This document shows, piece by piece, positions 12,248 through 18,154 of a stretch of 23,107 nt of DNA. The position numbers were made by a program, and so were the translations under genes. Each line of letters opens with the position of its first letter. Position 1 is the first letter of the stretch. The notes under the pieces are model-generated. The model made no database searches. It was not told the origin of the DNA and worked only from the letters and a program-made list of their open reading frames with translations. Origin of the DNA: a virus; the UHGV virus genome UHGV-1970859, one strand, 5' to 3'.

Positions 12248-12274
12248 CGCGCTTCGCTTGTCTGCTGCTTCGCC

Positions 12275-12297
12275 GGGGCATAAAAAATTTATGCCCC
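12275..12297. repeat. Perfect hairpin GGGGCATAAA-AAA-TTTATGCCCC just downstream of Q
   Basis: 10-bp perfect inverted repeat with a 3-nt loop, 28 bp after the Q stop. No flanking T tract, so not a classical intrinsic terminator. Lies in the region where P2 has its cos/packaging sequences. Confidence 0.4.
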
Positions 12298-12723
12298 GAC
12301 TCTCCAGCTCTTGTATCAATCAGATAATTTCACGACGCTTTCCTGCTTATTGCCATCATCGACAGTCAGACTCTTACGCAATCCCACCGCGTTGACTGCA
12401 TGTTCTCGCCGTCTCAGTGCGATTTTGACGGCCTTACCTTTCACCCCATCAAATCAAAAGCCCTCACGTCTTTTTCACGCTCAGCGTGAGAAAGACAGCC
12501 ATTCTGTTCTATCTCTGCGACATCGTTCAGGGAATGCTATTTACCCCCTGAAACGCGGGCTGTTCCCCCGTCACCTGCGCGCAGAAAAAACGCGTTTTTT
12601 TGTGCACGCACGGATCCTTGGCGGATCCAGCCACCACGCGGGCCGGAAGGGCAAAAAGTCGTTCAAAAAAATTGTGCAAATTTGTGCACAATCTTGCATT
12701 AAAATCAACGTTCAGTGGATGTA

Positions 12724-12752
12724 TTTAAGCGAAAAAAAGATCTTTGTATAAT
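12724..12752 (+). promoter_or_regulatory. Candidate sigma70 promoter for the toxin-antitoxin operon
   Basis: TATAAT at about 12747-12752 with TG immediately upstream and a weak -35 (TTTAAG) 17 bp away, about 30 bp upstream of the toxin start. Three TTGTGCA repeats lie upstream at about 12598, 12672 and 12682. Confidence 0.3.
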
Positions 12753-12783
12753 TTCGTTCGGTTACGTTGGTGAGAGGTTCTGA

Positions 12784-13185
12784 GTGAAAGACATCACATA
12801 TTGGAATGATAAAATTCAGAAACAAATTGATAGTTATCCTGAAGCCGTTCGAGAAAGGATAAATTTTGAGCTTGTTGCACTGCAGAGCGATTGTCCTCAT
12901 TCTTTCGACAGTTTCGATTTTCCAGTGGATGGTGATGATGCCTTGGGGGTTCCACCGGCTCAAAAAAAATCAATGCGGGAAACGATTGGTCGCTACGCAA
13001 TGCAATTAACCATCAAGAGTAGTGATTCTTATCGTATGATTTACGTTGCGAAATTTGCGGAGTCTGTTTACATACTTCATACATTTAAGAAAAAGACAAA
13101 TGGTGTGTCAAAAAAAGAATATGAGACAGCTGCCGCAAGATACAAACAATTAGTGGAGTATCGTCGTAAAAATGGCTTAAGATAG
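12784..13185 (+). CDS. Type II toxin, RelE/HigB superfamily (Gp49-like, DUF891-type)
   Basis: 133 aa, GTG start with GAGAGG upstream. C-terminal YRMIYVAKFAESVYILHTFKKKTNGVSKKEYETAAARYKQL is characteristic of Gp49-like toxins. Followed by an XRE-HTH gene (toxin-first order as in HigBA). AT-rich relative to flanking phage genes. Confidence 0.6.
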   Translation: MKDITYWNDKIQKQIDSYPEAVRERINFELVALQSDCPHSFDSFDFPVDGDDALGVPPAQKKSMRETIGRYAMQLTIKSSDSYRMIYVAKFAESVYILHTFKKKTNGVSKKEYETAAARYKQLVEYRRKNGLR

Positions 13186-13255: not shown

Positions 13256-13573
13256 ATGGAATTCGTCGTAGTTAAAAACCCTTATGCGTCATCAAGTAGC
13301 TCTGTAAATGAAGCTAGTGATAAACACATCCGGGCCCAATTAATGGTTATTATCCGAAAAATGATTCAGGAGCGCGGTCTTACCCAGCGAGAAGCTGCTG
13401 AATTGCTGGAAACAACCCAACCAAGAGTAAGCGAAATCATTAATGGTAAGTTAGATAATCATACCATTGATCGACTGTTTATCATGCTAAACATCCTGGG
13501 GTGGGATTTTAAGTTTGGGTATTCCGGTGGGGTTGTTACTGCGACGGCAGAACATTCCTGTCAGGTTGCATAA
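13256..13573 (+). CDS. Antitoxin, HTH XRE family (HigA-like)
   Basis: 105 aa. LTQREAAELLETTQPRVSEIINGKLDNHTIDRLFIMLNILG is an HTH pattern typical of antitoxins paired with Gp49-like toxins. GGAG Shine-Dalgarno. Confidence 0.6.
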   Translation: MEFVVVKNPYASSSSSVNEASDKHIRAQLMVIIRKMIQERGLTQREAAELLETTQPRVSEIINGKLDNHTIDRLFIMLNILGWDFKFGYSGGVVTATAEHSCQVA

Positions 13574-13580
13574 ATATTAA

Positions 13581-13613
13581 GCCCCTGACGGGGCCAACCG
13601 TCAGGGGCTTTTC
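13581..13613 (+). terminator. Rho-independent terminator after the antitoxin gene
   Basis: GCCCCTGACGG-GGCCAA-CCGTCAGGGGC, an 11-bp perfect GC-rich stem followed by TTTTC, 8 bp after the stop codon. Confidence 0.7.
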
Positions 13614-13738
13614 AACACAAAGAAATGATAGTCTGAGAAATATCATCACCTTGATGTTTTGCATGTACAACTGTGATTCTAGTCAATCCAGGCAGATAAT
13701 CAAGGTAAAAATCATTCTCAGTAAGGAGGTGATTATGG

Positions 13739-13888
13739 ATGGCTTTGAAATCAATTGTAAAAAAACCGGCTCCGAAAGGATTTCGTTGGCAGTTTTGCCG
13801 ATACCGTAAGGTTCGTGGTGATTCTGGTCGAAAGCTGGATGCTCATGAGTATGGCTGGAAAGCTTGGGCGTTTCTAGTGCGAAGCTGA
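13739..13888 (+). CDS. Small basic hypothetical protein (49 aa)
   Basis: Below the ORF-track size cutoff. Strong AGGAGG Shine-Dalgarno at 13724-13729. Own translation: MALKSIVKKPAPKGFRWQFCRYRKVRGDSGRKLDAHEYGWKAWAFLVRS. Has its own terminator hairpin 13 nt downstream. An alternative 24-aa frame starts at 13735. Confidence 0.35.
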   Translation: MALKSIVKKPAPKGFRWQFCRYRKVRGDSGRKLDAHEYGWKAWAFLVRS

Positions 13889-13901
13889 TATTTGATATTT
13901 A

Positions 13902-13925
13902 AAAGCATGGCGAAAGCCATGCTTT
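13902..13925. terminator. Bidirectional intrinsic terminator between the small ORF (plus) and parR (minus)
   Basis: AGCATGGC-GAAA-GCCATGCT, an 8-bp stem with a GNRA-type loop, T-rich on both sides. A second hairpin ATTCAGG-N8-CCTGAAT at about 13934-13955 is followed by TTCTTTTTTA. Confidence 0.55.
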
Positions 13926-13931
13926 TTGTGA

Positions 13932-14246
13932 TCATTCAGGAAAAAATTCCTGAATATTCTTTTTTATTTGACTTATATTCTGATTTTTGCAACCAACAGG
14001 CTCGCTGTTATGCCAGCCCCATATGTGATTGTTGGCAGGCATATTTTCCCCCTCTGACCATTCAGCCAGCCAGTAAGCAAAGGCAGGATCGTTTTTAATG
14101 AGTGCCAGTCCAGCCAGAAATGCCGCGCGTTGCGCGCGGCTGCGTTCGGAGGCTGGCAGGCTGTCGAGATAATTACACGCTTCCCGTTCACTCTTGACTG
14201 CAGCTGGCTTCAGATAGAAACTTATCCGTCTGGTTGGTGTCGTCAT
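13932..14246 (-). CDS. parR: ParR-like RHH centromere-binding adaptor
   Basis: Track ORF 13932..14381. Likely start is MTTPTRRISFYLKPAAV at 14246, with an AAGGAG Shine-Dalgarno inside the parM 3' end. N-terminal RRISFYLKP...YLDSLPASERSRAQRAAFLAGLALIKNDP resembles R1 ParR (RRTIAFKLNP...TLDSIPQGERSRLNRAALTAGLALYRQDP) as recalled from memory. Confidence 0.6.
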   Translation of the reverse strand: MTTPTRRISFYLKPAAVKSEREACNYLDSLPASERSRAQRAAFLAGLALIKNDPAFAYWLAEWSEGENMPANNHIWGWHNSEPVGCKNQNISQIKKNIQEFFPE

Positions 14247-14250
14247 TGGT

Positions 14251-15210
14251 TTACTCCTTGTCCATTGCGTACAGCCCATTAACCAGAGCAAACTGTGGCA
14301 CCCCGTCCGCGATGAAAGTCGCATTAACTCCGCAGGCTTCGCGGATAGCGGGGGCCACAATCTCCGCCCCGCCACCGACAACCATCACCCGCCCGTAACC
14401 CGAAAAACCCGCCAGCGCGCGGATCACGCGTTGTTTCAGTGTTTCTTCCTTTTCACGAATAACCGCCATCAGGCTGGCGTAATGCGCGTCATTGTGGATG
14501 TGCTGGCGCAGCCAGGCTTCATCATGGCGATGTTCGATAATGGTATTGGCGATGTGGTGACTGGTACGCATACCGTTAGTGGCCATCACCGACAGTACGG
14601 CATCGGCCATCAGGGAAACGCCTACGTGTGGATCGCAAAACACCTGGCTGATACCTACCAGTTGTCCCTGAACCTTTGCCACATCCAGCGTGGTTCCGCC
14701 TAAATCCACAATCAGCAGGGATTCAAACGGACTCATGTCAGCCAGTGCTTTAAAACCAGCCGGAATGGATTCAGGCATAACCCGTACGTTACGGATAGTG
14801 AATGCTTTTCCGTTCTGGTACGCCACCGGGCGCATGACGTTTGCTTTTTTGCGGTTGATGTTGGCCATGTCCGGCTGTGCGTTTGTGTCGAAATATTCGC
14901 TCAGTGGCAGGGTGACAACCACATCCACTTCCTGTGGTGTGATGCCTGATTTGACCAGCGCGTGATGAATGGCAATGACATTCACATCGCTGTACTGGTA
15001 TTGCGTGTCGGTCGTCTGGACAAAGCGATCGCTGACCGGATCAAAACCATAGCGCACGCCATCAAGCATGTAGTTTGCGGGCTGCGTGCCACCGAACGGC
15101 GCAGACCATTCCGACTTGAAGCTGTTCGGGCTGATGGCGTTGCGGCGTTCGCCGTTCTCAGTCCATGCCAGCTTGATGTTGGTGGAGCCGTCATCGATAC
15201 AAATTTTCAT
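14251..15210 (-). CDS. parM: ParM/StbA-family actin-like segregation ATPase
   Basis: 319 aa. MKICIDDGSTNIKLAW, ISPNSFKSEW, YSDVNVIAIHHAL, VMPESIPAG, LLIVDLGGTTLD, FSGYGRVMVVGGGAE and LVNGLYAM match the R1 ParM motifs (phosphate 1, adenosine and phosphate 2 elements of the actin fold), as recalled from memory. Confidence 0.85.
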   Translation of the reverse strand: MKICIDDGSTNIKLAWTENGERRNAISPNSFKSEWSAPFGGTQPANYMLDGVRYGFDPVSDRFVQTTDTQYQYSDVNVIAIHHALVKSGITPQEVDVVVTLPLSEYFDTNAQPDMANINRKKANVMRPVAYQNGKAFTIRNVRVMPESIPAGFKALADMSPFESLLIVDLGGTTLDVAKVQGQLVGISQVFCDPHVGVSLMADAVLSVMATNGMRTSHHIANTIIEHRHDEAWLRQHIHNDAHYASLMAVIREKEETLKQRVIRALAGFSGYGRVMVVGGGAEIVAPAIREACGVNATFIADGVPQFALVNGLYAMDKE

Positions 15211-15286: not shown

Positions 15287-18154
15287 TCATATATCGCGGC
15301 GCGTTTTTTGCTCATTTACGGGATTTGTGAATCCCGTTTCTGTCTGTTTTTTGTTTCCACTGGTCAGGCCACCCCGCAGCAGGTCTGCTTTGCGGCGGGC
15401 GCGTTCAGTGGTTTCACTGATTCTCTGTGCGTGCTCTGCGTCGCGGATGGCGCGCAGCATGTCAGAAAGCACGGTAACGGGTGTTTTCATGGTGTTCTGG
15501 TCTTGCTGAAGTGTGGATGCCAGGCGTGCGGCGGCTTCGGGGTCTGATGCCCCCAGCTGTTCCAGATAGCTGGCGACCGGGTTATGGCGGATCTCCGTGC
15601 TGCTTACGCCGTGGTTACGGCTCAGGCGCTGCCAGAGCTGCGTGATCCGGCTGTCCGGTCTGGTATCCGGTTTGCGTACAATTTCAAATCCCTGCGGTGC
15701 AATGATGCTGCCGTCAACGTACAGACTGCCGCCCCGTAACAGGTGCTGCATCTGTTGTTCACCGATATGCAGGCCGAGAGATTCAGCAGACTCCCGCCAT
15801 TCTTTAGCGAGTAATTCGTGGTTATCAGGCAAAGGCCGCTGCTGTTTGCGGCTCTGTGTCCAGCTCTGCATTTCATCACTGCTGTTTTTTGCCTGTTTGT
15901 CACGAAGCGAACGCATCAGCGCCCGGCGTTCGTGCCGTTTCAGTGAGCGCATCCATTCGTTCACTTCAACGCCGTCAGGGAGCTGCGGCCACGGTGCTGG
16001 CCGTTCTTCCGGCTGTTCTGTCCCGTTGTTGTCCGTTTCCTGTACACGGGGACAGTTATTGCCACGAGTCCAAGGGGCGGCAGGGCCGCCCTGAAGGTCA
16101 AAACCATTTTCGCGGGCGCTGTCTTCCGCTTCCGGTTTGCGTCTTACCAGCTTCCAGTTATCCGGATGCGTGCATACGCGGGAAGACTCCCCAATGAGCG
16201 GCGACCAGATCCCGTAAATCTGTACACTCTGCTCGCCGTAATCGTTCAGCTCATCTGCGAGGTCGTAGGCTGTGCGAATCAGGTAGTCCTTGCGCGGAAC
16301 AAGTACGCCACCCTGTTTTTCAATGTAGGTGGCAAAACATCCGGCATCAGCGGCAGCGAGTACCGCATCCATTGCGTCATCCTTCAGCCGTTGCGGGCCT
16401 TCCGGGTTGCGTGCCATCTGGCTGGCAAGGCGGCGGAGTTCACGCCACACCTGACGGGAGGGGATGCCAAAGAACTGGAACTGGCGGACCCGGTGAAGGC
16501 GCGCCCAGCCGATGGCACGCTCCACGCTCTCGGCCATTGATTTACCTGTTTCGTGGTCAACGCGTGGCTTGCCCGTTTTCGGGTCGATGCCATCCACGGC
16601 ACGGCTGTCCAGGTTTTTCCCGATGTAGGTGGCGATGTAGCTGGTCGGTGTGCCTTTTGAGCCGTCGACGTACTCTGCCTTAAAGCGTGGGGTAATATCA
16701 TCACCCAGCTCGTGACGATCTTCCTGAATGGCAATATCGCGGGTGTGGGACACAATGGTGTCGATTTCTTCCGGATGAGCAAAGACCATCATATGCCAGT
16801 GCACGGTGCCGTCATGGTGAGGCTCCACCGTGCGGATGCCATACCAGCGCAGGCCGTCGCGGTTCAGTTTCTTGCGGACTGCCGCAAAAAACGTGTTAAC
16901 CAGGTAATCGCTGGAGTCGCGCATGGTGGCCCCGTTCCATTTGGGATTCTGATGACCGTTCTCTGTTGTGGCGTGGTATTTTGACGGGCAGGTGACAGTC
17001 AGAAACACCGCTTTGTCGCCACGGGCTTCGGCCAGAAGTTCCAGTCCCTTCATGGTGGCCATCATTTCTGCCTTACGGTGAACCGGGTTACTTACTCCCG
17101 CGTAATACACTGTCTCGAGATCAATCGTGAACCCGTCTTCATTTTCCAGCATGAAACTTTTCAGGAAATCGCGTGTTTTCTCGCGCTGTGCGCGAAACTC
17201 GCTTAACGCGTCCTGGCTCAGATAAGGCGATGTTTTTCTGGAAACCAGACAGGCGGCGCGGAGTTGTTCTTCTCTCCACTCGCAACGTAACAGCCACAGT
17301 TTGCGTTTCCACCATTCCGCACAGGTCAGGCGAAGGATTGCACCCGGCAGCAGCTCTGTGTCCGGTTCGTTCCTCCGGTCTTTGTCTGTTGTCAGTACGT
17401 CATAATGCGGAGGCATGGCGTGCAGGTGTAACGCCATGCGGGCCAGCATCTGATACGCCTTCAGGGTTACATCCATGGTCAGCTCGCCATCGGTCGCGCC
17501 AAAGCCATCGCAGAGTTTTTCGAAGGTGCTGCTGAACATCGCCGCCGTCATGGTGGCCAGCGTCTGTATCTGGTGTTTGTTGAGCTGCGGCAGGTAAAGC
17601 AAATCGTCCAGGCGCTCGCGTCCGGCAAGGGAGCGATAACCCGGTGTCAGCCAGCGTCCGTCAGTGCGATCCAGACGTTCGAATATTTTGCGCAGGGTTC
17701 CGCGTGCATAGCGTTCCGCCTGCCAGTTCTTTTTGCCTTTCTGACGATCGGCTTCCTGCTTCTTGCGCAGAAAAGAGAGGTGGCGGCTCAGAGGTTCACG
17801 CAGATAAACGGGAAGCACCTTCAGTGTGGCAAAAGCACGGGCCACCGGGTCTTGTTCTGTTGCCTGACGCTTGCTGATGATGCTTTGTGTCAGCTTTTCA
17901 CGCTGTCCGGCTTCCTCAAGGGATGCCATGAGTTTTTTACCCACGGTGGATTGTGCGAAAAAGGCTTCCTCCTTCGCTTCCTGTTCTTCCAGGGCCTTTT
18001 TGTCTGCTTCAAGGTAGTAACGGATGGCGCGTTGCAGGTCGGTTTCAGTTTCCTGCCTGCGCTCCGTAAATCTGGCCGGATCAATGGCTGGCCGTGGTTC
18101 ATTCCAGCTCCATGCAAACTCACTCATGGCTGGTATCCCGTCACGTGCTGCCAC
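15287..18154 (-). CDS. A: Replication initiation protein gpA (HUH rolling-circle endonuclease)
   Basis: 955-aa ORF. [21 protein letters not shown] (HUH motif) and [13 protein letters not shown] (paired catalytic tyrosines) resemble P2 gpA ([35 protein letters not shown]). Track start is GTG at 18154; an ATG at 18127 is coupled (ATGA) to the upstream gene stop and may be the true start. Confidence 0.9.
   Translation of the reverse strand: [955 protein letters not shown]
15313..15351. repeat. Repeat unit 2 containing the palindrome ACGGGATT-TGTG-AATCCCGT (about 15318-15337)
   Basis: Near-identical to unit 1 including flanks (TTTACGGGATT...AATCCCGTTT.TG.CTGTTTT), 73 bp away. Lies within the last codons of A. 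Confidence 0.5.

What the first reader, a model, noticed from the sequence alone, without database searches (positions are those of the whole stretch)
13720..13926. Orphan 49-aa basic ORF with consensus Shine-Dalgarno and dedicated terminator
A perfect AGGAGG lies at the right distance from an ATG that opens a 49-aa Lys/Arg-rich frame (MALKSIVKKPAPKGFRWQFCRYRKVRGD...), followed 13 nt later by a GNRA-loop hairpin. It sits between the toxin-antitoxin terminator and the parR terminator, so it would be its own transcription unit. It is invisible to the ORF track because of its size. It could be a small regulatory or nucleic-acid-binding protein, or the region could encode a small RNA instead.
Basis: seen in the sequence. 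Interest (0 to 1): 0.4.

Follow-up and report, generated by a model that had tools for sequence, protein, structure and literature searches.

The report
Antisense-RNA-gated small prophage protein gene
The 49-codon frame is a real, widely conserved but mostly unannotated gene for a very basic mini-protein, and comparison with about 90 related loci predicts that its translation is locked by a folded leader, an activating pseudoknot and an antisense small RNA, which suggests a product the cell must keep tightly off.

Summary
In detail: AGGAGG at 13724-13729, ATG at 13739, a 49-codon frame to 13888, and a GAAA-loop hairpin at 13905-13922.

The frame is a genuine gene. It matches PHROG 33859 (E 5e-24). 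I found 52 distinct peptides in 92 loci across Proteobacteria and beyond. Third-codon-position divergence is 0.52 against 0.16 and 0.11, and dN/dS is about 0.06-0.14. AlphaFold gives a confident small beta-sheet (pLDDT 90) with no match in Pfam, NCBIfam or PDB.

It is probably not its own transcription unit. A conserved leader of about 165 nt travels with it: hairpin H0, hairpin P0, helices P2 and P1, and a pyrimidine strand that can mask the SD. The P0 loop covaries with that pyrimidine strand, which indicates a pseudoknot. The invariant leader bases match a sigma-70 promoter on the opposite strand. That promoter would make an antisense RNA of about 95 nt, ending at H0. The H0 loop on that RNA is the UUGGCG-type motif known from plasmid antisense RNAs.

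The logic resembles IncI/IncB rep control and type I toxin-antitoxin systems. Upstream lies a cleavable-repressor operon: XRE plus ImmA (CapH/CapP-like) in most loci, a RelE-like toxin plus HTH antitoxin here.

The protein's function is unknown. A toxic, nucleic-acid-binding effector is my best guess. No RNA, translation or toxicity data exist.

The parts
12784..13185 (+). Upstream operon, gene 1: RelE/ParE-superfamily (Gp49/HigB-like) toxin, 133 aa
   Evidence: Pfam PF05973 Gp49, E 3e-13. PGAP calls it a 'type II toxin-antitoxin system RelE/ParE family toxin' in the 99.7%-identical prophage.
13256..13573 (+). Upstream operon, gene 2: HTH (HigA-like) antitoxin/repressor, 105 aa. It occupies the position held by XRE+ImmA in most related loci.
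   Evidence: Pfam HTH_37, E 8e-19; annotation; synteny.
13579..13610 (.). H0: 13-bp hairpin with hexaloop GGCCAA (13592-13597) on the mRNA strand, which reads UUGGCC on the antisense strand. Predicted terminator and recognition loop of the antisense RNA, and its target loop in the mRNA.
   Evidence: Terminator-like on the minus strand. The loop is CGCCAA in 24 of 56 distinct loci, a near-variant in 10, and flipped to UUGGCG in 8. The left flank is A-rich, giving a T-run on the minus strand.
13625..13646 (+). P0 hairpin (ATGATA / TATCAT) with the purine-rich loop GTCTGAGAAA
   Evidence: 98.6-99.1% of cells paired; all 7 pairs show compensatory changes.
13633..13639 (+). Pseudoknot, 5' strand (CTGAGAA in the P0 loop)
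   Evidence: Pairs with 13715-13721. 85.6-86% paired; 5-6 of 7 pairs compensatory. Cognate versus non-cognate duplex energy is -10.9 versus -7.0 kcal/mol; 0 of 20000 permutations were as good.
13648..13706 (+). P2 helix (13648-13655 with 13699-13706) enclosing the P1 hairpin (13671-13678 with 13685-13691, loop CTAGTC)
   Evidence: MFE folds. P2 is 82-84% paired with 3 of 8 pairs compensatory on the unfitted alignment and 8 of 8 on the CM-fitted one; P1 is 62-68% paired.
13676..13703 (-). Predicted sigma-70 promoter of the antisense RNA: -35 TTGATT (13703..13698), 16-nt spacer, -10 TAGAAT (13681..13676)
   Evidence: Promoter scan. The same promoter sits at the same place in nearly all taxa. The invariant leader columns A13676, T13680, A13681 and CAAG 13701-13704 are TAnnnT and cTTG on the minus strand.
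13572..13669 (-). Predicted cis-antisense sRNA, about 95-98 nt: 5' tail, the complement of P0 as a stem-loop, then the H0 terminator hairpin with loop UUGGCC. The ends are inferred, not mapped.
   Evidence: Promoter plus minus-strand terminator. Fold -39.4 kcal/mol, z -5.5.
13715..13721 (+). Pyrimidine strand TTCTCAG: the 3' strand of the pseudoknot. Alternatively it forms part of the hairpin that masks the SD.
   Evidence: The alternative SD-masking hairpin 13710-13734 has -6.6 kcal/mol and cannot be tested by covariation.
13723..13733 (+). Extended Shine-Dalgarno AAGGAGGTGAT
   Evidence: Read. GGAGGTG is (nearly) invariant across taxa.
13735..13737 (+). ATG1: a near-universal out-of-frame ATG at the optimal SD spacing. 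Role unexplained.
   Evidence: Present in 54 of 57 distinct loci, 4-6 nt after GGAGG. The true start lies 2, 4 or 7 nt downstream. ATG1 frames run 4-37 codons with no conserved stop.
13739..13888 (+). Small protein gene, 49 aa, net charge about +10, predicted three-stranded beta-sheet
   Evidence: phrog_33859, E 4.8e-24. Homologues. Purifying selection. AlphaFold pLDDT 89.6.
13901..13927 (.). Bidirectional intrinsic terminator (AAAAGCATGGC-GAAA-GCCATGCTTTTT) shared by the small gene (+) and parR (-, which ends at 13932)
   Evidence: Folds on both strands, z -5.0 and -7.5. parR ORF; Pfam Plasmid_stab_B.

Best explanation
What it is: 13739-13888 encodes a genuine 49-aa, strongly basic, beta-sheet mini-protein. 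It belongs to an uncharacterised family (PHROG 33859) that rides on prophage and island cargo sites. It is the last cistron of a mobile module and is held under layered control.

How it most likely works:
(1) Transcription enters from the upstream auto-repressed operon. Here that is the RelE-like toxin plus HTH antitoxin. In most relatives it is an XRE repressor plus an ImmA/IrrE peptidase resembling CapH/CapP. The message therefore rises only when the repressor is destroyed.
(2) In the leader of about 165 nt, a pyrimidine strand (13715-13721) can pair with the SD and mask it.
(3) The same strand can instead pair with the loop of hairpin P0 (13633-13639). This pseudoknot would free the very strong SD.
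(4) A promoter on the opposite strand inside the leader makes a cis-antisense RNA of about 95 nt. It covers P0 and ends in hairpin H0, whose loop is the UUGGCG-type U-turn motif of plasmid antisense RNAs. By pairing with H0 and P0 it would prevent the pseudoknot and keep translation off until mRNA outnumbers it.
(5) The protein itself is probably harmful to the cell: a nucleic-acid- or ribosome-binding growth-arrest effector, as in a type I toxin-antitoxin or abortive-infection device.

Status of each step: shown by comparative analysis are the coding status, P0, P2, the pseudoknot, the promoter-like and terminator-like elements on the minus strand, and the synteny. Inferred are the existence of the antisense transcript, SD masking, read-through transcription, the direction of the switch, and the protein's function.
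For: Coding status:
- 52 distinct peptides of 43-52 aa were recovered from 92 loci.
- Pairwise differences are 0.157, 0.112 and 0.521 at codon positions 1, 2 and 3. pN/pS is 0.14 and median dN/dS 0.06, against more than 2 in the other two frames.
- phrog_33859 matches at E 4.8e-24.
- A profile search found 361 clusters at 90% identity and 116 clusters at 50% identity among 1.84 billion representatives, nearly all small stand-alone proteins (two longer ones look like a deletion fusion and an N-terminal extension).
- AlphaFold gives pLDDT 89.6.

Leader structure:
- The same hairpins appear in single-sequence folds from many taxa.
- On a MAFFT alignment not fitted to structure, P0 is 98.6% paired with 7 of 7 pairs compensatory, the pseudoknot is 86% paired with 5 of 7, and P2 is 82% paired. 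No shuffle of 500 reached these values, and slid controls gave 36-51%.
- On a 33-sequence alignment including Pseudomonas and Methylococcaceae, the pseudoknot (not part of the model) is 85.6% paired with 6 of 7 compensatory.
- The best duplex of the strand 5' of the SD falls in the P0 loop in about 50 of 62 loci.
- Cognate versus non-cognate energy is -10.9 versus -7.0 kcal/mol, permutation p <= 5e-5.
- G.U pairs lie on the plus strand.

Antisense RNA:
- A minus-strand promoter (TTGnnn, 16-18 nt, TAnnnT, often with TGn) sits 33-38 nt left of the start codon in nearly all taxa.
- The invariant leader bases are exactly its key positions.
- H0 is a hairpin followed by a T-run on the minus strand.
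- The H0 hexaloop is CGCCAA/UUGGCG. This is the motif named in the title of Asano et al. 1998, JBC 273:11826, cited in PMC10724649.
- The predicted sRNA folds with z -5.5.

Context:
- XRE (PF01381) plus Peptidase_M78 (PF06114) lie upstream in about 38-40 of 50 loci.
- These match PADLOC CapH (8e-10) and CapP (6e-12).
- The module sits at prophage ends and cargo spots, and here in the variable region between the P2-type portal and replication genes.
Against: - No transcript, ribosome or toxicity data exist.
- The SD-masking hairpin is weak here (-6.6 kcal/mol, z -1.7). It cannot be tested by covariation because the SD never varies, and slid controls pair equally well.
- The P1 loop and the 3' strand of P2 are doubly constrained, as promoter and as helix. 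Part of their conservation may therefore be promoter-only.
- In this window H0 is also a fair plus-strand terminator (13 bp followed by UUUU), so read-through may be low. I found no alternative plus-strand promoter.
- In the Pseudomonas clade H0 has no T-run on either strand and its loop is flipped.
- The protein is not hydrophobic, unlike most type I toxins.
- Nothing links the fold to any known toxin.
- The conserved out-of-frame ATG1 is not explained by the model.
Confidence: 0.6

Rival explanations
1. One reading: an independent mini-gene with its own promoter, a plain strong SD and a private terminator. The protein is constitutively made in the lysogen, and the upstream conservation is incidental.
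For: The SD, start codon and downstream hairpin are all present. H0 with UUUU could end the upstream operon on the plus strand.
Against: No plus-strand promoter-like site lies between 13400 and 14300. The conserved, covarying leader (P0 and the pseudoknot) lies upstream of any possible private promoter and must be in the mRNA. The gene follows an operon in the same orientation in nearly all loci. The terminator is bidirectional and shared with parR.
Confidence: 0.07
2. The leader is a purely cis-acting switch, such as an RNA thermometer, a ligand- or protein-binding riboswitch, or autoregulation by the basic protein. No antisense RNA exists, and the minus-strand promoter-like bases are conserved only because they form P1 and P2.
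For: P2 shows compensatory changes and P1 is a hairpin. The pseudoknot and the SD hairpin have similar energies, as expected of a switch. A very basic product could bind its own leader.
Against: The invariant bases are loop and unpaired positions that spell TAnnnT and cTTG at 16-18 nt spacing on the minus strand, from Enterobacterales to Synergistaceae. Helices alone do not need those letters. H0 has a T-run on the minus strand but usually not on the plus strand, and it carries the antisense-RNA loop motif. No Rfam family matches.
Confidence: 0.12
3. The regulation is as in the best explanation, but the protein is not a toxin. It would be a regulator released on DNA damage, for example an antirepressor or inducer of the resident prophage, an inhibitor of a competitor phage or host process such as cell division, or a partner of the XRE/ImmA (or toxin/antitoxin) pair.
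For: XRE-ImmA pairs control induction of mobile elements and defence operons (bioRxiv 10.1101/2022.04.27.489752; PMC2701414, which predicted an unknown third component). The protein is small, basic and soluble-looking, unlike membrane type I toxins. Its position next to integrases in lambdoid prophages would suit a lifecycle regulator.
Against: The same module sits in unrelated phage types (P2-like, lambdoid) and at either prophage end. The hosts have their own CI/LexA-type repressors, so a specific repressor target is unlikely to be shared. Multi-layer silencing is more typical of harmful products. Neither reading has direct evidence.
Confidence: 0.25
4. The frame is not translated, and the region functions only as RNA.
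For: Short ORFs arise by chance. PGAP does not call it in the closest genome.
Against: Amino-acid conservation persists across classes while synonymous sites are saturated (pS 0.75, pN 0.145). The other frames carry 1-6 stops. The SD and start codon are conserved. The fold prediction is confident.
Confidence: 0.02

Closest known systems
Antisense RNA / activator-pseudoknot control of rep translation in I-complex and IncL/M plasmids (ColIb-P9 Inc RNA-repZ, pMU720 RNAI-repA). Titles of Asano & Mizobuchi 1998 and Athanasopoulos et al. 1999 as cited in PMC10724649; mechanistic details partly from my own knowledge.
   Same: A cis-antisense RNA of roughly 60-100 nt carries a UUGGCG-type loop. It targets a hairpin in the mRNA leader. 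A pseudoknot between a leader hairpin loop and a sequence next to the RBS is needed for translation. The antisense RNA competes with pseudoknot formation.
   Different: The regulated gene is a 49-aa protein, not a replication initiator. The pseudoknot uses a second hairpin (P0), not the hairpin that bears the UUGGCG target loop. The pseudoknot would work by removing an anti-SD strand. No in-frame leader peptide is coupled to the gene; instead there is an out-of-frame ATG. There is no sequence or covariance-model similarity (no Rfam hit). The window's own loop is UUGGCC, and the loop is flipped onto the mRNA in Pseudomonas.
Type I toxin-antitoxin systems (hok/sok, tisB/istR, zorO/orzO, dinQ/agrB, aapA1/isoA1; PMC5416894 and PMC5066626, listed)
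   Same: A small protein gene has a long structured 5' leader that sequesters the SD. Mutually exclusive mRNA folds and an antisense sRNA encoded in the leader region are predicted. The system resides on mobile elements and is missed by annotation.
   Different: The product is basic and predicted to be a soluble beta-sheet, not a hydrophobic membrane peptide. Toxicity is untested. The gene is the distal cistron of a protein-regulated operon rather than a stand-alone locus.
CapH/CapP, ImmR/ImmA and DdrO/IrrE repressor-peptidase switches (bioRxiv 10.1101/2022.04.27.489752; PMC2701414)
   Same: In most related loci the two genes upstream are an XRE HTH protein and an M78 metallopeptidase. They hit the PADLOC CapH and CapP models. 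Such pairs derepress an associated effector operon on DNA damage.
   Different: The pair is co-oriented with its presumed cargo instead of divergent. The peptidase is short (about 175 aa) and matches only the peptidase part of the CapP profile (14-146 of 242). In this window the pair is replaced by a RelE-like toxin and an HTH antitoxin.
PHROG 33859 (phage protein family of unknown function)
   Same: Full-length match, E 4.8e-24.
   Different: The family carries no functional annotation, so membership names the protein but explains nothing.

Membership tests
PHROG 33859 | Significant full-length match to the family profile | tested here: met
   E 4.8e-24, residues 1-49 on profile positions 1-55 of 57.
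Type I toxin-antitoxin system | Small protein whose expression is toxic to the cell | not testable with these tools
   No expression data. There is no similarity to known toxins.
Type I toxin-antitoxin system | Toxin is typically a short hydrophobic membrane peptide | tested here: not met
   Net charge is about +10, there is no hydrophobic helix, and AlphaFold predicts a three-stranded sheet. A minority of known type I toxins are also non-membrane proteins (my own knowledge: SymE, RalR).
Type I toxin-antitoxin system | Antisense RNA antitoxin complementary to the toxin mRNA | tested here: inconclusive
   A conserved minus-strand promoter and terminator predict one, but no transcript evidence is available.
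Type I toxin-antitoxin system | Toxin mRNA leader folds so as to hide the SD, with alternative structures | tested here: inconclusive
   The alternative pairing (pseudoknot) is well supported. The SD-masking hairpin is predicted but has no covariation support.
I-complex / IncL/M type antisense-pseudoknot translational control | Antisense RNA hairpin with a 5'-UUGGCG-3' loop complementary to a target loop in the mRNA | tested here: met
   The family at large has the hexaloop CGCCAA on the mRNA strand in 24 of 56 loci, near-variants in 10, and the flipped form in 8. The window itself has GGCCAA/UUGGCC, one base off. The motif is named in the title cited.
I-complex / IncL/M type antisense-pseudoknot translational control | Pseudoknot between a leader hairpin loop and a sequence adjacent to the RBS | tested here: met
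   P0 loop with the strand 2-9 nt upstream of the SD. 85.6-86% paired; 5-6 of 7 pairs compensatory; beats all shuffles and all permutations.
I-complex / IncL/M type antisense-pseudoknot translational control | Translationally coupled leader peptide upstream of the regulated gene | tested here: not met
   No conserved upstream leader ORF was seen. The only conserved extra start is ATG1, out of frame and overlapping the gene start, with a variable stop.
I-complex / IncL/M type antisense-pseudoknot translational control | Regulated gene is a plasmid replication initiator; homology of the RNA to CopA/RNAI families | tested here: not met
   The product is a 49-aa protein. No Rfam match appeared even at E <= 10 or E <= 1. 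This is an analogy, not membership.
CapH/CapP-regulated defence operon | XRE-family repressor plus M78 (ImmA/IrrE) peptidase adjacent to the regulated operon | tested here: not met
   For this window the upstream genes are Gp49/RelE-like plus HTH_37. The feature is met in about 38-40 of 50 related loci, but there the pair is co-oriented and the match covers only the peptidase part of the CapP profile.
Type II RelE/ParE-HigA toxin-antitoxin pair (the upstream genes) | RelE-superfamily toxin followed by an HTH antitoxin in one operon | tested here: met
   PF05973, E 3e-13, and PF13744, E 8e-19. Activity is untested.

The most novel reading that the evidence does not exclude
This is a previously unrecognised, widespread family of fail-safe effector modules on prophages and islands. 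A new non-membrane mini-toxin of 43-52 aa (basic beta-sheet, probably binding nucleic acid or the ribosome) would be silenced by a CopA/Inc-like antisense RNA that blocks an activator pseudoknot. It would be transcriptionally armed by a CapH/CapP-like (or toxin-antitoxin) repressor switch. In effect it would be a new type I toxin-antitoxin or abortive-infection system that fires on DNA damage or phage attack. It would also be the missing 'third component' of many XRE-COG2856 pairs predicted in PMC2701414.
Probability: 0.3. Interest if true: 0.8.

Novelty: new variant of a known kind. Interest (0 to 1): 0.66.

Why it matters
- XRE-ImmA/IrrE (COG2856) pairs are among the commonest two-gene modules on mobile elements. 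Their cargo is often unknown: Makarova et al. 2009 predicted 'a still unknown third component'. Here a conserved but largely unannotated small gene and a predicted sRNA sit directly downstream of one clade of such pairs, in hosts from Enterobacterales to Pseudomonas and Acinetobacter, and more rarely outside Proteobacteria.
- The control logic of competition between an antisense RNA and a pseudoknot was known from plasmid replication genes. Finding it, by independent covariation evidence, in front of a phage-borne mini-protein would widen that mechanism.
- It would also supply a compact, portable translational gate with a clear genetic test.
- The case shows how annotation pipelines miss both partners. 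The gene is uncalled in the closest E. coli genome, and there is no Rfam or Pfam entry.
- If the protein is a toxin, it would be a new fold class for RNA-controlled toxins and a candidate anti-phage effector in the P2 cargo region.

Tried and rejected
- RNAalifold on an all-taxa MAFFT alignment gave no structure. The cause was misalignment, solved by using a closer seed set and a covariance model.
- Rfam returned nothing for the window, for 11 related loci, or for two focused regions. Only sub-threshold terminator-like hits appeared.
- Domain fusions as a functional clue: all 116 clusters are small. The few longer ones look like mis-called starts or, in one case, a deletion fusion to an ImmA N-terminus.
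- By eye I considered a sigma-54 promoter or a plus-strand sigma-70 promoter in the 'CC-TTG' block. Both were rejected: spacing to any -10 box is wrong (22-23 nt), and the block is the covarying 5' strand of P2.
- I considered ATG1 as the true start with programmed frameshifting or transcriptional slippage. This was rejected because the offset to the real frame is +4, +7 or +2 (mixed frames), and the A7 run of the window is absent in relatives.
- Pairing of the P0 3' arm with the GGTGAT tail of the SD was not consistent across clades.
- A literature search for the peptide motifs gave zero papers. Searches on ImmA, small proteins, antisense RNA and pseudoknots found no description of this module.
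Full report
**1. The observation**

The window is a P2-like prophage of E. coli. A 1.6-kb stretch around the finding is 99.7% identical to prophages in two complete genomes. There PGAP annotates a RelE/ParE-family toxin, an HTH protein, a ParR-like protein, ParM and the replication endonuclease, but nothing between the HTH gene and parR.

- AAGGAGGTGAT at 13723-13733.
- ATG at 13739.
- A 49-codon frame ending at 13888.
- The hairpin GCATGGC-GAAA-GCCATGC at 13905-13922.

Two refinements are needed. First, a second ATG (13735) lies 4 nt upstream in another frame. Second, the hairpin is flanked by A4 on the left and T5 on the right and folds equally well on both strands (-16.9 and -16.5 kcal/mol). 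It is therefore a bidirectional terminator shared with parR, whose ORF ends at 13932.

**2. It is a real gene**

The peptide matches phrog_33859 (unknown function) over its full length, E 4.8e-24. It matches nothing in Pfam or NCBIfam.

Relatives were found in several searches:
- Five in the protein database, from Serratia, Pantoea and Arsenophonus.
- One lambdoid phage record.
- 34 genome loci and 56 viral contigs. Hosts include Enterobacterales, Vibrio, Pseudoalteromonas, Acinetobacter, Xanthomonas, Pseudomonas, Methylococcaceae and Chromatiales, with a few Alphaproteobacteria, Geobacteraceae, Synergistaceae and others.

From these I extracted 52 distinct peptides of 43-52 aa. Their core is PKG(F/Y)RWxFCR(Y/F)R(K/R)V(R/K)..S.(K/R).LDAh(D/E)YG(Y/H/W)(E/K)AWxFLVR.

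Among 34 distinct 49-codon sequences, mean pairwise differences are 0.157, 0.112 and 0.521 at codon positions 1, 2 and 3. pN/pS is 0.14 and median dN/dS 0.06. The two other frames give ratios above 2 and contain 1-6 stops.

A profile search gave 361 clusters at 90% identity, all 'hypothetical'. A full HMMER scan of 1.84 billion representatives gave 116 clusters. All are small proteins with the domain at the C-terminus and no informative fusions.

**3. The gene does not stand alone: a conserved leader**

Printing the upstream DNA of all loci revealed about 165 nt of conserved architecture. It travels with the ORF even when the flanking genes differ. Single-sequence folds from many taxa give the same layout. 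In window coordinates:
- H0: 13579-13610, loop GGCCAA.
- P0: 13625-13630 with 13641-13646, purine-rich loop.
- P2: 13648-13655 with 13699-13706, enclosing P1 (13671-13678 with 13685-13691).
- An A-rich linker.
- A pyrimidine strand, then the SD.

The loop of P0 is complementary to the pyrimidine strand just 5' of the SD, and the two change together. Examples:

| Locus | P0 loop | Pyrimidine strand |
|---|---|---|
| window | CUGAGAA | UUCUCAG |
| L039 (closest relative) | CUGGGAG | CUCCCAG |
| L004 | ACUGAGAG | CUCUCAGU |
| L007 | ACCAAGAG | CUCUUGGU |
| L076 | ACCUAAGG | CCUUAGGU |
| L083 | AACAGCGG | CCGCUGUU |
| L029 | UUCGGGAG | CUUCCGAA |

Quantitative support:
- The best duplex between the 16 nt before the SD and the 100 nt further upstream falls at a constant position (the P0 loop) in about 50 of 62 distinct loci.
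- For 26 representatives with different strands, cognate pairs average -10.9 kcal/mol against -7.0 for mismatched partners. None of 20000 permutations did as well.
- On a MAFFT alignment that knows nothing of structure (21 sequences), P0 is 98.6% paired with all 7 pairs compensatory. The pseudoknot is 86% paired (5 of 7 compensatory) and P2 82%. Every measure beats 500 of 500 shuffles, and slid controls give 36-51%.
- A covariance model built without the pseudoknot recovered Pseudomonas, Methylococcaceae and other loci. On that 33-sequence alignment the pseudoknot is 85.6% paired with 6 of 7 pairs compensatory, P0 is 99% paired, and P2 is 84% paired with 8 of 8 compensatory.

Complementarity to an antisense RNA comes for free, so this covariation can only reflect pairing within the mRNA.

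The same pyrimidine strand is predicted to pair with the SD (13710-13734, -6.6 kcal/mol). That helix cannot be tested because the SD never varies, and slid registers pair equally well. It remains an inference.

**4. A predicted antisense RNA**

The few invariant leader bases are not explained by helices. They are A13676, T13680, A13681 and CAAG 13701-13704. Read on the minus strand they give TAnnnT and cTTG, 16 nt apart. These are the key positions of a sigma-70 promoter.

- The consensus scan finds TTGATT-16-TAGAAT at 13703..13676.
- The same element recurs 33-38 nt left of the start codon from Enterobacterales to Acinetobacter, Pseudomonas, Thiobaca and a Synergistaceae genome. Its form is TTGAAC, TTGCGT, TTGCCA or TTGAAA, then 17 nt often ending in TGn, then TAnnnT.
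- A transcript from it runs leftwards through the complement of the P2 5' strand and of P0, and meets H0.
- On the minus strand H0 is a hairpin followed by a T-run. The A-rich left flank that produces this T-run is seen in most loci.
- The predicted RNA of about 98 nt folds into a 5' tail, a stem-loop and a terminator hairpin, with z -5.5.

The H0 hexaloop is CGCCAA on the mRNA strand in 24 of 56 distinct loci. It is a one-base variant in 10, including GGCCAA here. It is the reverse complement, UUGGCG, in 8, mostly the Pseudomonas clade.

UUGGCG is the loop motif of the ColIb-P9 Inc RNA. It appears in the title of Asano et al. 1998, JBC 273:11826, cited in PMC10724649. From my own knowledge, it is shared with CopA and IncB RNAI and forms a U-turn that speeds loop-loop pairing.

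G.U pairs in P0 and in the pseudoknot lie on the plus strand. The mRNA fold is therefore what selection sees. The resulting C.A mismatches would leave bulges in the antisense hairpin.

**5. Where transcription comes from, and context**

No plus-strand promoter-like site lies between 13400 and 14300. P0 must be in the mRNA, so the message most likely continues from the upstream operon through H0.

In about 38-40 of 50 representative loci that operon is an XRE HTH gene of about 119 aa plus an HEXXH peptidase of about 175 aa, followed by leader and ORF. Their matches are:
- XRE gene: Pfam HTH_3, E 1e-9; PADLOC CapH, E 8e-10.
- Peptidase: Pfam Peptidase_M78, E 1e-12 to 2e-7 across three tested loci; PADLOC CapP, E 6e-12.

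CapH/CapP, ImmR/ImmA and DdrO/IrrE are repressor-peptidase switches that derepress a cargo operon on DNA damage (bioRxiv 10.1101/2022.04.27.489752). Makarova et al. 2009 noted that XRE-COG2856 pairs probably control 'a still unknown third component' (PMC2701414).

In this window and in L039, both P2-like, the pair is replaced by a Gp49/RelE-like toxin and an HTH antitoxin. That is again an operon run by a labile repressor.

The module sits at cargo positions: outside the integrase or after the tail-fibre genes of lambdoid prophages, and here between the portal and replication genes of the P2-like prophage.

It is rare in E. coli, present in 15 of 5426 complete genomes. Two of those carry this version.

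**6. Mechanism proposed**

- Shown by comparison: the coding gene, P0, P2, the pseudoknot, promoter-like and terminator-like signals on the minus strand, the UUGGCG-type loop, and the synteny.
- Inferred: (a) the antisense RNA is made; (b) it pairs first loop-to-loop at H0 and then through P0, preventing the pseudoknot; (c) without the pseudoknot the pyrimidine strand masks the SD; (d) when the upstream repressor is destroyed, mRNA outruns the antisense RNA, the pseudoknot forms, the very strong SD is exposed and the protein is made.

Such double or triple locks are typical of harmful products. Together with the cargo location and the extreme basic and aromatic composition (net charge about +10, eight aromatic residues), I favour a growth-arresting nucleic-acid- or ribosome-binding effector. 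That step has perhaps a 40% chance of being right. A non-toxic regulatory role is the main rival.

**7. Comparison with what is known**

It works like the I-complex and IncL/M rep control (antisense RNA against an activator pseudoknot) and like type I toxin-antitoxin loci. It is a member of neither on present evidence:
- No Rfam model matches.
- There is no coupled leader peptide.
- The product is not a Rep protein.
- It is not a hydrophobic peptide, and toxicity is untested.

It is a member of PHROG 33859, which is uncharacterised. I found no paper describing the peptide or the module.

**8. Unexplained**

An out-of-frame ATG lies 4-6 nt after GGAGG in 54 of 57 distinct loci. The real start (ATG or GTG) lies 2, 4 or 7 nt further on. 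The ATG1 frames are 4-37 codons long with no conserved end. It may be a decoy that throttles productive initiation, but I cannot show this.

The strand flip of the H0 loop in the Pseudomonas clade, and the lack of a T-run there, are also unexplained.

**9. Verdict**

The finding is real and more interesting than first described. It is not an orphan ORF with a private terminator. It is the protein end of a conserved, unannotated module of RNA plus protein. The regulatory architecture is well supported by covariation, while the function is still open.

Noticed in passing
window 13735-13737 (and the equivalent site in L002-L092): An ATG out of frame with the conserved ORF sits at the ideal SD spacing in 54 of 57 distinct loci. 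The real start is 2, 4 or 7 nt downstream and is GTG in 17 loci. The ATG1 frames are short and variable (4-37 codons). It may be a decoy start that throttles translation.
   Followed up: partly
H0 loops: window 13592-13597; L025, L027, L028, L080, L085-L087, L091: The conserved hexaloop is CGCCAA on the mRNA strand in most clades but its reverse complement UUGGCG in the Pseudomonas clade and a few others. The U-turn motif therefore switches from the antisense RNA to the mRNA. In that clade there is no T-run on either side of the hairpin.
   Followed up: partly
window 13932-15210 (-): A ParR-like (Plasmid_stab_B) plus ParM partition pair sits inside a chromosomal P2-like prophage. DNA like the parR/parM junction occurs on the chromosomes of 1267 of 5426 complete E. 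coli genomes, so this actin-type segregation cassette is common prophage cargo.
   Followed up: no
window 15287-18154 (-): The ORF annotated as replication endonuclease in the closest genome is 955 aa in this window, with a long Gln/Arg/Glu-rich C-terminal part. From memory this is longer than the P2 gpA protein (about 760 aa).
   Followed up: no
window 12248-12783 versus L001 10936-12084: Between the portal gene and the toxin gene the window is about 613 bp shorter than the otherwise 99.7%-identical E. coli prophage. That prophage carries a 525-nt hypothetical gene there on the opposite strand. The cargo region is therefore itself variable.
   Followed up: no
L039 9495-9699 (-): The related P2-like element that shares the toxin/antitoxin plus small-ORF cargo also carries C4 antisense RNA, its a1/b1 targets and an isrK-like RNA, all above the Rfam gathering score. 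This is a P1/P7-type immunity RNA system.
   Followed up: no
protein P0143 (128 aa): One database protein is the N-terminal roughly 95 residues of an ImmA-like peptidase fused in frame to the small protein. It probably arose from a deletion that removed the peptidase active site, the leader and the antisense promoter. It would be a natural 'unlocked' variant worth examining.
   Followed up: no
L026, L036 (upstream ORFs of 256 and 267 aa); L023 (RadC-like JAB protein); L030-L032: In a minority of loci the small gene follows other partners. These include two related proteins with no Pfam match, and a RadC-like JAB-domain protein (PF04002, E 4e-47). The leader there differs from the main type.
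   Followed up: partly
window 13479-13616 (+): A sub-threshold Rfam hit to His_leader (28.6 bits against a gathering score of 49, E 0.015) overlaps the end of the antitoxin gene and H0. It is most likely a generic terminator-hairpin resemblance.
   Followed up: no
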